Origin: a virus
Length of the DNA stretch: 64,000 nucleotides
Direction: 5' to 3' (one strand)
Virus record (IMG/VR): IMGVR_UViG_3300031227_000015
A program made the position numbers and the translations under genes. This document shows, in pieces, positions 525 to 47,255 of this stretch; position 1 is the stretch's first letter, and every line of letters begins with the position of its first letter. The notes beneath the pieces were generated by a model. It had not been told where the DNA came from. It did no database searches and saw only the letters and a program-made list of their open reading frames with translations.

Positions 525-600
525 GTCACCTGTAGCTTAATGGTTAGAGCCTGCGGCTGTGACCCGCAAGATGAGAGTTCGATCCTCTCTGGGTGACCCA
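525..600 (+). tRNA. trnH: tRNA-His(GTG) with G-1:C73 and encoded CCA
   Basis: Full cloverleaf; anticodon arm TGCGG-CTGTGAC-CCGCA; T arm GAGAG-TTCGATC-CTCTC; His-specific G-1 pairs with C73. Confidence 0.95.
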
Positions 601-41755: not shown

Positions 41756-42007
41756 TTACTCCTTATCCAGCATTTCCATAACACTTTCATATGTTTTCTT
41801 TTTTTTCTTTTTCTTACCAACCTTCATATTATATTTATCATTACCTATAGATGTTATGACTATTTTATCATTTTTTATATCAAATTGTAAACTCTTGCCT
41901 GAACTTGTGATATTTTTAGCATCCCATTCAGCAAAAATATGAGGATTACTTGACTTCAACATATTCATTATTGTTTGTGCTACAGATTCAGGTAATTTTT
42001 GTCTCAT
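41756..42007 (-). CDS. Basic hypothetical protein
   Basis: ORF in operon. Confidence 0.5.
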   Translation of the reverse strand: MRQKLPESVAQTIMNMLKSSNPHIFAEWDAKNITSSGKSLQFDIKNDKIVITSIGNDKYNMKVGKKKKKKKTYESVMEMLDKE

Positions 42008-43438
42008 TTAGTCCTCCAATTCCTTATCCTTCATGACCTTTACGATTTCAGTTTGTATTTTCCTCATAAAATCAGTAAAACCTTTACCATAAAAGTTTAG
42101 ACCACTAACGTTCGTGATATCTTTATGGCCTCCTGACTGGCTCATTACTAAATCCCATAAACTTATACTTACCTTCTTCAATATACTCTTTTGTTCCTTT
42201 GATAATTGTGTATATGGTTTATTAGTAATGTCCTTTATCATACCTTCCCATCTATCATTTCCTTTCAAACCTTTGATATCCTTTTCAAATAGAGCCATCA
42301 TATCCTTGAAAGTGAAACCCATTGATTCTGCATTAAATGATTTATCCTTCTCAAAGGTGTATTTTATGTAATCCAGAGTTACCTTTATAGACTGCATTTT
42401 ACTCTTGAATTTAGGCAATACTTTTTTCATTACTATATCACCAAGATGGTATGGATTCTTACCACCCTTGAATGGGTTTTTACTCAATTGTACCAAACCC
42501 ATCGGCCACACAATAGTATAGAAATCTGCTGTAGGGTGGTTTTTAAATGGTGTATAACGGTCATAAAGATTTCCCTTACCCATAAAACCACCACCATATT
42601 GTACTATAGTGGTACCTATTAATATGGAAGCACCGCTTTTTAAACTCTTCACGTCACTTAATTTACCATTAATCTTAATTTTACCTTTAACTTGCTTAAT
42701 ATATTTTTCTTGATCTGTTTCTAATTGTTCAGGTGGTCTATAACCAGCTTCTTTAGCTATTTTAATTGTTGTATTATATATAGAAATGAGTGAAGGTTTT
42801 GCTTGCATTACCAAGTCTGTAAGGAAATCCTTTTTGTTTTTATGGGCTAATATTAATTTGTTTGTAGCGAAACCCATCATTTGGTGATTTACCTTACCAC
42901 CTTTCCTTTTATCAACCTTGAATACCGCTCTCATAATATCATCGGGCGTAAGATCCTGTGAGCCAAAATCTGCCGAATCAACTGTGGATATTATCTTAAC
43001 ATCTTTCGGTGGAAATAGGTCATTAGGAGATAATACTTGTGATATATAGGCTGCATTAGAAGGGGTCTTAACAAAAGAAGTGGAGGTTCCCTTTTCTACA
43101 CCTATCTGGCCTTCATGGTGGTCGGTGTGTATATTCATTACAGGTTTACCATGTGCGAAATCAACCATACAAACCAATGTCTTATTTTTTGGTTTAGGCA
43201 CTGCATACTCTTCTCCTCCGTACTGAATAGGATGTGCATCAATAGTTTTGATCCTATATTTTTGTAAATAAGCCTTCAATCCTATAGCTGAAGTAACACC
43301 GTCAAGTCAAAGATCCTTATGGAAGTAGATTTCTGCAGTCTTGTATTCTTTCGCAAGATCAGTAATATTGCGCAAACCCGATTCCATAAGGACCGATAAT
43401 ACCTCCTCTACGTCATTAAGTCTTTCCAAAATATTCAT
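42008..43438 (-). CDS. DHH/DHHA1 phosphoesterase interrupted by an in-frame TGA (candidate recoding)
   Basis: ATG at 43438 overlaps the upstream stop; IYFHKDL*LDGVTSA, VDF, TDHH, VDSADF, GGH. Confidence 0.85.
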
Positions 43439-45734: not shown

Positions 45735-47255
45735 TTAGTCGGCCACAACAATTCTTATACTAACCGAATCTACAGGCATCCAAATTCTTAAAAGTGAAGA
45801 GCTCACAGCACTTACTTGATATGGTAAAATAGATTCATTGTCATCATTGTCCCAGCATTGATAGTGAACGAATTGTGTTCCTATTGTAGAAGTATCGATA
45901 TCACTGTAATATAGTGTGTCACCTGAAGGTGTCCATGAATTTACAACTGTTGAAAGACCCACAAATGATGTACCAGATGATCCACTTGTGCCTGAGCTAC
46001 CAGAGGAGCCTGAGGAGCCTGAGGAGCCACTCGTTCCTGAACTGCCTGAACTACCATTCGTGCCTGAAGTTCCGCTTGAGCCTGAACTGCCACTACTACC
46101 ACTCGTTCCTGAACTTCCGCTTGTGCCTGAACTACCACTCGTTCCTGAACTTCCGCTTGTGCCTGAACTTCCGCTTGTGCCTGAACTACCACTCGTTCCT
46201 GAACTGCCACTACTACCACTCGTTCCTGAACTTCCGCTTGTACCAGAAGAGCCACTCGTTCCTGAGCTTCCGCTTGAGCCTGATGTCCCTGAACTACCAC
46301 TCGTTCCAGAAGAGCCTGAACTACCATTCGTGCCTGAAGTTCCGCTTGAGCCTGAACTGCCACTACTACCACTCGTTCCAGAAGAGCCTGAACTACCATT
46401 CGTGCCTGAAGTTCCGCTTGAACCAGAAGTTCCGCTTGTGCCGCTCGTGCCTGAAGAGCCTGAGCTTCCTAATAAACCATCCTCACCCTTATCACCGGTT
46501 CTAGCAAATGTAATTACTACATTATCACCATCTCCAAAAGGATTGGTTTCAGATGAATCAATCATAGATATCGTTATATCAAAGTATCCGGTTTCTTCAT
46601 CTAATGAACTTATTGTACCTAATAGAAACTTACTTGTATCAAACCTTCTTGTAAATTTTACATGCCCCTTTATAGTACTTGTAGAATCATCTATGGTTCT
46701 CATGTATAATTGTATATCTGAACCATTTATATCGGTATCACTTATGTATATTCCTGTAGATGAATTTTGAGTAACATTGTCTAATCTAACTGACCCACTT
46801 CCTGGATCAGATTTTGTAGTTGTTGTACTAAAATCATATTCAAATGCTGCTCCACCAAAATTACCATCCTGTCCTGAAGTTCCACTCGAACCTGAACTGC
46901 CTGAACTGCCTGAACTACCAGAGGAACCTGAACTTCCAGAGGAGCCACTACTTCCAGAACTTCCACTCGTACCAGAGGAGCCTGATGTACCAGAACTTCC
47001 AGAAGTGCCTGAACTTCCTGATGTACCACTACTTCCACTTGTGCCTGAACTTCCACAAGTACCACTCGTACCGCAGCTACCACTTGTGCCTGAACTACCA
47101 CTAGTGCCTGATGTACCACTGCTTCCACTTGTACCAGCAACAATAGAAGGAGTATTGGTAATAAGATGCCCACCCCAATCAACATCACTATCTATAACTA
47201 TTTCAGAAATTCTATCTACTACTCTGAAAGTTGTCATATCTCCACCTGCTTCCAT
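45735..47255 (-). CDS. Gly-Ser-Ser/Gly-Thr-Ser triplet-repeat protein (collagen-like fibre)
   Basis: Two long G-(S/T)-S tracts flanking a globular domain ending RTGDKG. Confidence 0.75.
   Translation of the reverse strand: MEAGGDMTTFRVVDRISEIVIDSDVDWGGHLITNTPSIVAGTSGSSGTSGTSGSSGTSGSCGTSGTCGSSGTSGSSGTSGSSGTSGSSGTSGSSGTSGSSGSSGSSGSSGSSGSSGSSGSSGSSGTSGQDGNFGGAAFEYDFSTTTTKSDPGSGSVRLDNVTQNSSTGIYISDTDINGSDIQLYMRTIDDSTSTIKGHVKFTRRFDTSKFLLGTISSLDEETGYFDITISMIDSSETNPFGDGDNVVITFARTGDKGEDGLLGSSGSSGTSGTSGTSGSSGTSGTNGSSGSSGTSGSSGSSGSSGTSGTNGSSGSSGTSGSSGTSGSSGSSGTSGSSGTSGSSGTSGSSGSSGTSGSSGTSGSSGTSGSSGTSGSSGTSGSSGTSGSSGSSGSSGTSGTNGSSGSSGTSGSSGSSGSSGSSGTSGSSGTSFVGLSTVVNSWTPSGDTLYYSDIDTSTIGTQFVHYQCWDNDDNESILPYQVSAVSSSLLRIWMPVDSVSIRIVVAD

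What the first reader, a model, noticed from the sequence alone, without database searches (positions are those of the whole stretch)
43301..43438. Candidate programmed stop-hop (CTT-TGA-CTT) inside the catalytic motif of a DHH phosphoesterase
Seen (minus strand): ATG at 43438, coupled to the upstream stop, then 43 codons ending TTC CAT AAG GAT CTT, then TGA (43309-07), then CTT GAC GGT in the same frame for over 430 codons. Established: DHH motif I is HxDxDG. Hopping from the first CTT to the matching CTT gives exactly H-K-D-L-D-G. Readthrough would add two residues, and the prfB-like +1 shift at CTT-TGA-C hits TAG after a few codons. A 12-bp stem (GTCCTTATGGAA 43393-82 with TTCCATAAGGAT 43324-13, enclosing a second hairpin) ends immediately before the take-off codon, as a stimulatory structure might. 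TGA is a normal stop elsewhere in this window. Inference: translational bypassing, possibly sensing RF2 or tRNA-Leu status.
Basis: partly seen in the sequence, partly recalled or inferred. Interest (0 to 1): 0.9.

Follow-up and report, generated by a model that had tools for sequence, protein, structure and literature searches.

The report
Natural ribosome stop-hop in phage gene
A phage phosphoesterase gene is cut inside its catalytic motif by six extra bases holding a stop codon, and because dozens of related phages carry 6-, 8-, 11- or 16-base versions of the same cut behind the same RNA stem, ribosomes most likely hop from one leucine codon to the next, a decoding trick so far shown mainly with artificial constructs and phage T4 gene 60.

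Summary
On the minus strand, 43 codons end in CAT AAG GAT CTT. They are followed by TGA (43309-43307), then CTT GAC GGT and 430 more open codons.

The insert is real DNA. It is identical in at least 11 fetched contigs and is held by 24 salt-lake runs. It is confined to one clonal lineage: the nearest relative (92% nt) and most homologues read H-x-D-L-D-G without interruption.

The decisive result is that about 6% of this phage gene family is interrupted at exactly this codon.
- All interrupted copies have CTT-TGA-C, then a gap of 3, 5, 8 or 13 nt, then a CTN leucine codon and GAY GG.
- The gaps put the downstream ORF in any of the three frames. Only a hop from CTT to CTN restores H-x-D-L-D-G in every case.
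- The downstream ORFs are under purifying selection (dN/dS 0.08-0.29).
- Every interrupted copy has a strong stem closing on the take-off codon (mean -35 kcal/mol, z about -7). No uninterrupted copy has it (mean -10).
- This association holds in 8 of 8 independent contrasts, and the stem shows compensatory changes.

No protein or RNA evidence exists. This scan had already noted the same family on other DNA.

The parts
43310..43438 (-). ORF1: 43 codons, the N-terminal segment of the DHH/DHHA1 phosphoesterase. It ends in H40-K-D42-L43. Gene callers list it as a separate 43-aa protein (P0128).
   Evidence: It aligns with residues 1-43 of uninterrupted homologues.
43382..43394 (-). 5' arm of the closing stem (GGTCCTTATGGAA), lying in codons for V-L-M-E.
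   Evidence: Equivalent arms are present in all interrupted relatives.
43327..43379 (-). Interior of the stem-loop: a 6-bp helix (43379-43374 with 43332-43327) plus smaller hairpins.
   Evidence: MFE and centroid structure.
43312..43324 (-). 3' arm of the closing stem (TTCCATAAGGATC). It ends on the first base of the take-off codon and contains the AAGGA purine run.
   Evidence: In the uninterrupted sister L008, two mismatches break this stem.
43310..43312 (-). Take-off codon CTT (Leu43).
   Evidence: CTT is invariant in all about 60 interrupted relatives, while uninterrupted ones mostly use TTA or TTG.
43307..43309 (-). Coding gap: the in-frame stop TGA. With the next base it forms TGA-C, completing the CTT-TGA-C heptamer.
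   Evidence: Relatives extend the gap to TGACG, TGACG+NNN or TGACGAACCGAAA.
43304..43306 (-). Landing codon CTT, to which the peptidyl-tRNA-Leu is inferred to re-pair. It is not decoded a second time.
   Evidence: Relatives have CTT, CTG or CTA here, always followed directly by GAY GG.
42008..43303 (-). ORF2 from the resume codon GAC (D of the D-G pair) to TAA. It holds motif II (VDFAH), motif III (DHH), motif IV (VDSAD) and the C-terminal SGGH. Gene callers start it at TTG 43279 (P0002, 423 aa).
   Evidence: The fold of the 90% identical uninterrupted homologue matches DHH/DHHA1 enzymes.

Best explanation
The gene encodes one DHH/DHHA1-type phosphoesterase and is read by programmed short-range translational bypassing, a natural 'stop-hop'.

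Proposed steps:
1. The ribosome translates 43 codons and arrives with peptidyl-tRNA-Leu on CUU in the P site and UGA-C in the A site. UGA-C is a slow termination context, and the heptamer is the one that is shift-prone in prfB.
2. The 5' arm of a long stem has already left the ribosome. Re-pairing with the 3' arm, which ends on the take-off codon, pulls mRNA out through the exit side. This helps the weak CUU:anticodon pairing to dissociate.
3. The mRNA slides 6 nt (8, 11 or 16 nt in relatives). The retained peptidyl-tRNA re-pairs with the next CUN codon.
4. Decoding resumes at GAC GGU, so nine nucleotides specify one leucine and the catalytic motif H-K-D-L-D-G is rebuilt.
5. Ribosomes that terminate release only a 43-aa peptide.

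Shown here: the sequence anatomy, its recurrence with frame-independent gaps, selection on both halves, and the strict co-occurrence, conservation and covariation of the stem.

Inferred: the hop itself, the role of the stem as driver, the efficiency, and any regulatory purpose.
For: 1. The insert is real. It has the identical sequence in 11 fetched contigs from ENA and JGI assemblies. Twenty-four salt-lake runs hold the stretch; Logan contigs of two of the four runs laid span the site with no differences.
2. The same codon is interrupted in 33 IMG/VR contigs, 27 metagenome contigs and 3 assembly contigs of the family. All have CTT-TGA-C, a gap of 3, 5, 8 or 13 nt, a landing codon CTT, CTG or CTA, and then GAY GG. 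The downstream ORF of more than 400 codons is always in the frame of the landing codon, so all three relative frames occur. Only a CTT-to-CTN hop gives H-x-D-L-D-G in every variant.
3. Pairs of interrupted genes show dN/dS of 0.08-0.29 downstream of the stop at dS 1-2. The 35-44 upstream codons are also conserved. On the window's own branch since the split from L008 there are 21 synonymous and 5 non-synonymous codon changes.
4. In 22 distinct interrupted copies, the 85 nt ending at the take-off codon fold at a mean of -34.9 kcal/mol (z -7.2), with a stem closing on the C of CTT. In 74 uninterrupted copies the mean is -9.9 (z -0.3), and none has the closing stem. The 27 further metagenomic cases average -35.2.
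5. Interruption and stem go together in 8 of 8 phylogenetically independent contrasts, p = 0.008.
6. The stem has 4 pairs and 15 cells with compensatory changes. 88.9% of cells are paired against 34-50% in slid controls, and 0 of 500 shuffles reach the observed score.
7. The window and its uninterrupted sister L008 differ in this 85-nt stretch by 6 bases (4 places plus a synonymous CTT/TTA Leu codon) and the insert. Two of the four changes (ATA>ATG, AAA>AAG) are the ones that complete the stem: -28.9 against -13.2 kcal/mol.
8. A lineage whose outer stem is broken (L033 type) also carries an extra in-frame TAA, as expected if loss of the stem means loss of function.
9. Synthetic stop-hops between matched codons flanking a stop are established in E. 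coli (Weiss et al. 1987, as reviewed in PMC5009743). Pairing of mRNA that has left the ribosome has been proposed as the forward driver in T4 gene 60 (bioRxiv 10.1101/2024.12.09.627546).
Against: - There is no protein, ribosome-profiling or RNA evidence. Only assembled contigs could be laid, so minor DNA variants and RNA-level removal of the gap cannot be excluded.
- The window's lineage is clonal, with 0 SNPs in the gene, so selection after the insertion cannot be measured within it. Its closest relatives lack the insert.
- The window's stem is the weakest of the class but two (-28.9 kcal/mol).
- CTT-TGA-C is the classical +1 frameshift site. A competing, unproductive +1 shift is therefore expected, and the hop may be inefficient.
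- Stem and gap lie within 100 nt of each other. In some lineages they move together by recombination, so part of their association could be linkage rather than function.
- The host, its tRNA-Leu set and its RF2 are unknown.
Confidence: 0.78

Rival explanations
1. The gene is a fresh pseudogene. A recent 6-nt insertion (formally a TTGAC duplication plus one T) put a stop into the catalytic motif of a dispensable gene in one clonal phage lineage. No full-length protein is made, or only traces from unprogrammed hopping.
For: The insert is confined to one clonal lineage, and the 90% identical relative P0125/L008 lacks it. About 94% of family members are uninterrupted. At least one interrupted lineage (L033 type) does look as if it is decaying.
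Against: The window's copy has every feature of the conserved cassette: CTT-TGA-C, a CTN landing codon directly before GAY GG, and the closing stem. This cassette is kept under selection in dozens of diverged phages. Two lineage-specific substitutions complete the stem. The 432 codons downstream are intact, and changes on the window branch are 21 synonymous to 5 non-synonymous.
Confidence: 0.08
2. The stop is passed by readthrough or frameshifting rather than hopping. TGA would be read as an amino acid (near-cognate or suppressor tRNA, or a recoded TGA) in the 6-nt forms, and a +2/-1 shift would act in the 8-, 11- and 16-nt forms. The resulting proteins would have 2-5 extra residues inside motif I.
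For: UGA-C is the leakiest stop context in E. coli (my own knowledge). One database copy of this very gene was translated with W at the stop by a gene caller (P0122).
Against: This needs at least two different mechanisms for what is clearly one conserved element. The inserted residues would vary in number (for example X-L, T-L, T-G-L) between the two metal-binding Asp residues, whose spacing is fixed in every uninterrupted homologue examined (about 95). TGA is a normal stop in this window, including the gene 130 nt upstream. The only tRNA in the window is tRNA-His. The prfB-type +1 frame closes after 8 codons.
Confidence: 0.05
3. The gap is removed before translation, either by an unknown RNA-level excision or transcriptional realignment guided by the stem, or by a DNA subpopulation that lacks the insert.
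For: Nothing direct. The stem could in principle bring the ends together. Only contigs, which hide minor variants, could be examined.
Against: No known bacterial or phage system excises 6-16 nt from mRNA (my own knowledge). The invariant CTT-TGA-C and the matched CTN landing codon are what tRNA re-pairing needs, not what splicing needs. Contigs of two of the four runs laid span the site with 0 differences.
Confidence: 0.05
4. The enzyme is split into two pieces: a 43-aa peptide and a separately initiated C-terminal protein assemble into an active enzyme.
For: Gene callers predict two ORFs. Some 8-nt forms offer a TTG just before the landing codon.
Against: There is no start codon near the landing site in the window; the first is TTG, 9 codons downstream and past the D-G pair. 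No promoter-like or terminator-like site was found. A split gives no reason to conserve CTT-TGA-C, the CTN codon abutting GAY GG, or the stem. The cut also falls between the two Asp residues of one metal site.
Confidence: 0.03

Closest known systems
Synthetic 'stop-hops' in E. coli (Weiss, Dunn, Atkins, Gesteland 1987; reviewed in PMC5009743)
   Same: Matched or near-matched Leu codons flank a stop, so that 9 nt specify one amino acid. Peptidyl-tRNA dissociates and re-pairs downstream. A slow A-site stop favours the event.
   Different: Those are artificial constructs of low efficiency with no dedicated stimulator, and the review states that no natural in-frame stop-hop was known. Here the element is natural and conserved in dozens of phages. 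It has a large 5' stem and tolerates gaps of 3-13 nt.
Phage T4 gene 60 50-nt translational bypass and its homologues (bioRxiv 10.1101/2022.08.31.505936; 10.1101/2024.12.09.627546)
   Same: [quoted passage not shown] It lies in a phage enzyme gene, is patchily distributed and shows signs of transfer by recombination.
   Different: The gap is 3-13 nt rather than 50 (20 in one clade). The codons are CUU/CUN, not GGA. There is no take-off hairpin inside the gap and no evident special nascent peptide, since the upstream peptide is the same in uninterrupted homologues. No homing endonuclease was found beside the element. There is no sequence homology.
Streptomyces phage phiHau3 terminase, bypass of 10-nt (7-nt) inserts at rare UUA codons (PMC10732093)
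   Same: It is a short-distance natural bypass in a phage gene, the inserts shift the frame, and a 5' stem-loop has been proposed as stimulator.
   Different: There the trigger is a hungry sense codon (UUA) tied to bldA tRNA availability. Here it is a UGA stop in the prfB-type heptamer. The gene family and hosts differ, and only 3 of 100 terminase genes were affected.
prfB (RF2) autoregulatory +1 frameshift, AGGGGG-N3-CUU UGA C
   Same: The heptamer CUU-UGA-C is identical. tRNA-Leu slips at a poorly terminated UGA, so the yield should depend on RF2 activity.
   Different: There is no Shine-Dalgarno element at 3-nt spacing. Productive decoding needs a 6-nt (in relatives 8-16-nt) displacement to a non-overlapping codon.
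Mitochondrial 'byp' elements of Magnusiomyces capitatus (as reviewed in PMC5009743)
   Same: [quoted passage not shown] The elements are mobile.
   Different: Their gaps are 27-55 nt (my own knowledge), they occur genome-wide in one mitochondrion, and they depend on special mitochondrial decoding. Here there is one site in one gene family and a bacterial ribosome.

Membership tests
Programmed translational bypassing (hopping) | Take-off and landing codons that the same peptidyl-tRNA can pair with | tested here: met
   The pair is CTT/CTT in the window, and CTT with CTT, CTG or CTA in about 60 relatives.
Programmed translational bypassing (hopping) | A stop or slow codon in the A site immediately 3' of the take-off codon | tested here: met
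   TGA followed by C is invariant in all interrupted members found. The search pattern itself fixed CTTTGAC, but all 5 interrupted loci in the unbiased sample of 80 also have it.
Programmed translational bypassing (hopping) | An untranslated gap whose length evolves without regard to reading frame, while the flanking protein sequence stays collinear with uninterrupted homologues | tested here: met
   Gaps of 3, 5, 8 and 13 nt occur. The downstream ORF is always in the frame of the landing codon, and the joined product is always H-x-D-L-D-G.
Programmed translational bypassing (hopping) | A cis-acting mRNA structure that stimulates the event | tested here: inconclusive
   A conserved, covarying stem is strictly associated with the interruption. 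Its stimulatory effect has not been measured.
Programmed translational bypassing (hopping) | A single polypeptide that lacks gap-encoded residues, shown experimentally | not testable with these tools
   No proteomic or expression data are available, and no RNA run is listed.
T4 gene 60 / MobA mobile bypass cassette | Physical linkage to a homing endonuclease gene, plus a nascent-peptide signal | tested here: not met
   Pfam and PHROGs scans found no nuclease domain in ORFs flanking the window's gene and five other interrupted copies. An HNH gene occurs only in the uninterrupted L008. The upstream peptide is the same in uninterrupted homologues.
prfB-type +1 programmed frameshift | CUU-UGA-C with an open +1 frame encoding the rest of the protein, and an SD element 3 nt upstream | tested here: not met
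   The heptamer is present, but the +1 frame closes after 8 codons. The purine run AAGGA lies 1 nt upstream and is not conserved across cassettes.
Stop-codon reassignment (code 4 or 25) | TGA used in frame throughout genes and not used as a terminator | tested here: not met
   TGA ends 41 of 116 stop-to-stop frames of at least 100 codons, and the adjacent upstream gene ends in ATGA. This is the only in-frame CTT-TGA with long ORFs on both sides in the window.
DHH/DHHA1 phosphoesterases (RecJ, NrnA, GdpP, PggH) | Motifs I (DxD), II (D), III (DHH) and IV (D), plus the C-terminal GGGH-type motif, on the two-domain DHH/DHHA1 fold | tested here: met
   HKD-L-DG, VDFAH, TDHH, VDSAD and SGGH are invariant or nearly so. 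Pfam PF01368 matches 18 of 18 members, but below its gathering score (best E 8.5e-6). The AlphaFold model of P0125 (pLDDT 82) has as its listed Foldseek matches only DHH-superfamily structures (PggH, TM1595, RecJ, GdpP, family II pyrophosphatase, one uncharacterised), most at probability 0.9-1.0 and TM 0.3-0.5. The substrate is unknown.

The most novel reading that the evidence does not exclude
The element would be a compact, portable bypass module: about 85 nt of stem-loop, then CUU-UGA-C, a gap of a few nucleotides and a CUN codon. It would drive efficient ribosome sliding by exit-side mRNA re-pairing alone, with no nascent-peptide signal and no hairpin inside the gap. Phages would gain, lose and exchange it at a recombination hot spot inside a catalytic motif. 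Its role could be to gate an enzyme by RF2 activity, or to protect the site against a nuclease that cuts the uninterrupted sequence.
Probability: 0.3. Interest if true: 0.93.

Novelty: new variant of a known kind. Interest (0 to 1): 0.88.

Why it matters
Translational bypassing has rested for decades on essentially one well-studied natural case (T4 gene 60), on yeast mitochondrial byps and on a candidate in Streptomyces phages. In-frame stop-hops were known only from artificial constructs, and the 2016 review says no natural occurrence was known.

This gene family offers dozens of natural variants of one minimal element. The gaps are 3, 5, 8 and 13 nt, the take-off heptamer is invariant, and the 5' stem covaries. 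There are also near-isogenic pairs with and without the element: the window and L008 differ by the insert, a synonymous Leu codon and four other bases in the cassette, two of which complete the stem.

That makes the proposal that re-pairing of mRNA leaving the ribosome drives forward sliding directly testable. It also warns annotators that such genes are being called as a 43-aa ORF plus a truncated enzyme.

Tried and rejected
**Searches that gave nothing useful**
- Megablast of the gene against GenBank phages found no match.
- PHROGs found no family for the protein.
- A profile search of PDB sequences gave nothing meaningful; the fold search was needed instead.
- No whole genome is held for this window, so the rest of the phage could not be scanned for further hop sites.
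- Sequencing runs: no RNA holder is listed. All 24 holders are kept as Logan contigs, not raw reads, so minor alleles, transcript ends and expression could not be examined. Contig breaks near the site in two low-depth runs (X18, X24) were left uninterpreted.
- The genome-contig scan gave 93 pattern matches. All but one are chance matches, and the one with a landing-like motif (L302, Collinsella) has a broken upstream frame, so I rejected it.

**Ideas considered and rejected**
- Homing endonuclease beside the cassette: none found in the ORFs scanned.
- Internal promoter or terminator at the site: none found.
- A simple 6-nt tandem duplication as the origin: rejected, because no 6-nt unit repeats exactly. 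Formally the insert is TTGAC x2 plus one T.
- Quasi-palindrome template switching as the source of the stem changes: rejected, because one change lies in each arm.
- Global TGA recoding: rejected.
- prfB-like +1 shift: rejected.
- A Shine-Dalgarno-like AGGA upstream of CTT as a universal stimulator: rejected, because L022/L023 (CAAGAC) and L050 (ATTGAC) lack it.
Full report
**1. The observation**

- ATG at 43438 overlaps the TGA of the upstream 134-aa gene.
- 43 codons end in TTC CAT AAG GAT CTT (CTT = 43312-43310).
- TGA follows at 43309-43307, then CTT (43306-43304), then GAC GGT.
- The frame stays open for 432 codons after the TGA, to TAA at 42010-42008.
- The +1 frame after CTT-T closes at TAG after 8 codons.
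- TGA is a normal terminator in this window: 41 of 116 stop-to-stop frames of at least 100 codons end in it (both strands, so non-genes are included), and so does the gene immediately upstream.
- The only tRNA in the window is tRNA-His.
- This is the only CTT-TGA in the window with long open frames on both sides.

**2. Is the insert real, and how widespread is it among close relatives?**

Gene callers split the gene into a 43-aa ORF (P0128, seen on 26 contigs) and a 423-aa ORF (P0002/P0123, seen on 14 and 18 contigs).

Eleven contigs fetched from ENA and JGI assemblies all carry the exact site and show no difference anywhere in the 1,431-nt gene. Their only variation lies in a repeat-rich gene at 46050-46250 and in three bases at 41796-41802.

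Twenty-four salt-lake metagenome runs hold the stretch. Logan contigs of two of the four runs laid span the site without differences. So the insert is real DNA, but in one essentially clonal lineage.

The nearest relative lacks the six bases and reads CAT AAA GAT TTA GAC GGT. This is P0125 (loci L008 and L009), 90% identical in protein and about 92% in DNA. The next 17 homologues aligned also lack them.

**3. The same codon is interrupted in many other lineages**

Three homologues at 55-58% identity had gene calls starting 'MTLDG' or 'LTLDG'. Their DNA reads ...CAC CAA/ATG GAC CTT TGA CG CTA GAT GG... This is an 8-nt insert at the very same codon, with the downstream ORF in another frame.

A pattern scan for Y-F-H-x-D + CTTTGAC gave these results:
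- 35 IMG/VR hits, of which 33 are this family;
- 27 family cases among 119 metagenome hits;
- only chance matches in 596 Gb of cellular genomes.

The variants, written as take-off codon | gap | landing codon, are:
- CTT|TGA|CTT and CTT|TGA|CTG;
- CTT|TGACG|CTA or CTG;
- CTT|TGACG+NNN|CTT or CTA, with six different NNN triplets;
- CTT|TGACGAACCGAAA|CTT.

Each is followed directly by GAY GG and, wherever the contig allows, by an intact ORF of more than 400 codons in the frame of the landing codon. Gaps of 3, 5, 8 and 13 nt place the downstream part in all three relative frames.

Readthrough cannot serve the non-triplet gaps. A +1 shift serves none of the gaps of 3, 5 or 8 nt. A hop from CTT to the next CTN gives H-x-D-L-D-G in every case.

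In a sample not biased by the pattern (80 IMG/VR loci found by protein similarity, out of at least 534 relatives), 5 are interrupted and 75 are not. Uninterrupted genes mostly use TTA or TTG for this leucine. Interrupted genes always use CTT at take-off.

**4. The interrupted genes are functional**

Between diverged interrupted genes, the part downstream of the stop has dN/dS of 0.08-0.29 at dS of about 1-2.

The 35-44 upstream codons are also conserved. They show far lower dS (0.05-0.28 in close pairs). This fits an RNA-level constraint, recent exchange of the cassette, or both.

On the window's own branch since its split from L008 (polarised with L016), there are 21 synonymous and 5 non-synonymous codon changes.

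One lineage (L033 type) has lost the outer part of the stem and also has an extra in-frame TAA 83 codons after the landing site. It looks like a decaying copy.

**5. The stem**

In the window, 13 bp (43394-43382 with 43324-43312, the last pair using the C of the take-off codon) close a structure of -30.4 kcal/mol. Its z-score is -3.16, and it is the top-ranked inverted repeat in the 64 kb.

Across the family the contrast is stark. I folded the 85 nt ending at the Leu codon in each copy.

| Set | Copies | Mean MFE (kcal/mol) | Mean z |
|---|---|---|---|
| Interrupted, distinct sequences | 22 | -34.9 | -7.2 |
| Interrupted, further metagenomic cases | 27 | -35.2 | not computed |
| Uninterrupted | 74 | -9.9 | -0.3 |

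- All interrupted copies have an 18-bp-class stem closing at the take-off codon.
- No uninterrupted copy has the closing stem. The most stable uninterrupted copy (L113, -23.6) folds into a different, internal hairpin.
- On a tree of the C-terminal 400 residues, interruption and strong stem coincide in 25 of 25 rows and in 8 of 8 independent contrasts, p = 0.008.
- The stem covaries. The 'x' codon of H-x-D pairs with a codon in V-L-x-E upstream: CAG/CTG, AAG/CTT, ATG/..., ATT/... Four pairs and 15 cells carry double changes. 88.9% of cells are paired against 34-50% with slid partners, and 0 of 500 shuffles reach the observed score.
- The window and L008 differ in this stretch at four places, plus the Leu codon and the insert. 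Two of the four (ATA>ATG and AAA>AAG) are exactly the ones that complete the stem: -28.9 against -13.2 kcal/mol.

**6. Distribution and exchange**

The interrupted state needs at least 12 changes on the tree, at least 8 of them forced by well-supported branches. Near-identical gene bodies differ in state: L051/L081, L029/L130, L026/L076 and window/L008.

- L051 shares 90-100% nucleotide identity with uninterrupted L081 from about +20 onward, but nothing upstream of about -100.
- L051 shares the cassette and upstream region with L029.
- So a recombination junction sits at the take-off site.
- In the window lineage, by contrast, the cassette is L008-like. It therefore arose, or was lost in L008, in situ.
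- No homing endonuclease was found next to the cassette in the window or in five other loci. An HNH gene lies 1.9 kb downstream only in the uninterrupted L008.

**7. The protein**

Pfam DHH (PF01368) matches all 18 aligned homologues, but below the gathering score. The motifs HKD-L-DG, VDFAH, TDHH, VDSAD and SGGH are conserved.

An AlphaFold model of the uninterrupted P0125 (pLDDT 82, pTM 0.80) has as its listed Foldseek matches only DHH-superfamily structures: PggH, TM1595, DhhP, RecJ, GdpP, NrnA, family II pyrophosphatase and one uncharacterised protein. Most have probability 0.9-1.0; TM-scores are modest, at 0.3-0.5.

The protein is therefore a DHH/DHHA1 phosphoesterase of unknown substrate. 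Its neighbours include a lytic transglycosylase. In some relatives the enzyme is fused to peptidoglycan-binding and glycoside-hydrolase domains.

**8. Mechanism proposed**

Shown here: the anatomy, its frame-independent recurrence, selection on both halves, and the conserved, covarying and strictly associated stem.

Inferred:
1. With CUU in the P site and UGA-C in the A site, termination is slow.
2. The 5' arm of the stem is already outside the ribosome. Zipping with the emerging 3' arm pulls mRNA through the exit side and dislodges the weak CUU pairing.
3. The peptidyl-tRNA-Leu re-pairs at the first CUN, 6-16 nt downstream.
4. Decoding resumes at GAY.

This is the synthetic stop-hop of Weiss et al. 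(reviewed in PMC5009743) combined with the exit-side pairing driver proposed for gene 60. An unproductive +1 shift at CUU-U, as in prfB, is a likely side reaction. Efficiency and purpose are unknown; the purpose could be RF2-dependent dosing of a nuclease-like enzyme, protection of the site, or nothing.

**9. Rivals**

- A fresh pseudogene is the main alternative for this particular copy (0.08).
- Readthrough or frameshifting that leaves extra residues in the motif (0.05).
- Removal of the gap from RNA or DNA before translation (0.05).
- A split two-piece enzyme (0.03).
- Assembly error is excluded by the many independent contigs.

**10. Novelty**

The 2016 review states that in-frame stop-hopping had been shown only with synthetic constructs and that no natural occurrence was known.

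Later literature in the held library covers gene 60 homologues, sliding kinetics and the phiHau3 10-nt bypass. No paper links bypassing with DHH enzymes.

This scan had already noted the same family on other genomes (e1-5728951). I re-derived the evidence independently here, and it agrees.

I class the element as a new variant of a known kind. It is translational bypassing, but with a minimal gap, a prfB-type take-off heptamer and a dominant 5' stem.

Noticed in passing
window 45735-47255 (-), especially 46050-46250: A 506-aa protein has two long runs of G-S/T-S triplets (collagen-like). The repeat DNA (periods 9-108) differs in length and sequence between otherwise identical contigs of the same phage, so this is a hypervariable, probably fibre-like gene.
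   Followed up: partly
L033, L041, L047, L057, L058 (IMG/VR); L033:1259-1343(-) and about 250 nt downstream: One interrupted lineage has lost complementarity in the outer 9 bp of the stem. It also carries an in-frame TAA at a conserved Ser codon 83 codons after the landing site, with the frame open beyond it. This is probably a decaying copy. It serves as a natural control linking stem loss to gene loss.
   Followed up: partly
L051:4596-7006, L034, L038:9212-10207: In some relatives the DHH enzyme is fused at its C-terminus to PG_binding_1 and Glyco_hydro_19 domains, or lies next to them or to a phage lysozyme. In the window an SLT lytic transglycosylase lies about 2 kb away. This suggests a link between the enzyme and cell-wall attack or lysis.
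   Followed up: no
L008:3247-4101: The uninterrupted sister phage has two extra genes that the window lineage lacks: a 127-aa gene of unknown function and a 93-aa HNH endonuclease (PHROG E 3e-12). They lie 1.9 kb downstream of the DHH gene. It was not tested whether this nuclease targets the motif-I sequence.
   Followed up: no
L051 vs L081 and L029 vs L130, around the take-off codon: Gene bodies that are 90-100% identical at the DNA level are joined to unrelated upstream regions, with the junction at the motif-I site. The site therefore acts as a recombination breakpoint between phage genomes.
   Followed up: partly
window 41796-41802: Three clustered SNPs (A>C, G>T, A>T) in the 83-aa gene just downstream are, apart from the repeat gene, the only differences among contigs of this phage.
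   Followed up: no
window 526-600 (+): A single tRNA-His (GTG) gene is the only tRNA in the 64 kb. The window's low GC (0.30-0.37) and strand-switching GC skew fit a large phage genome; contigs of this phage reach 194 kb.
   Followed up: no
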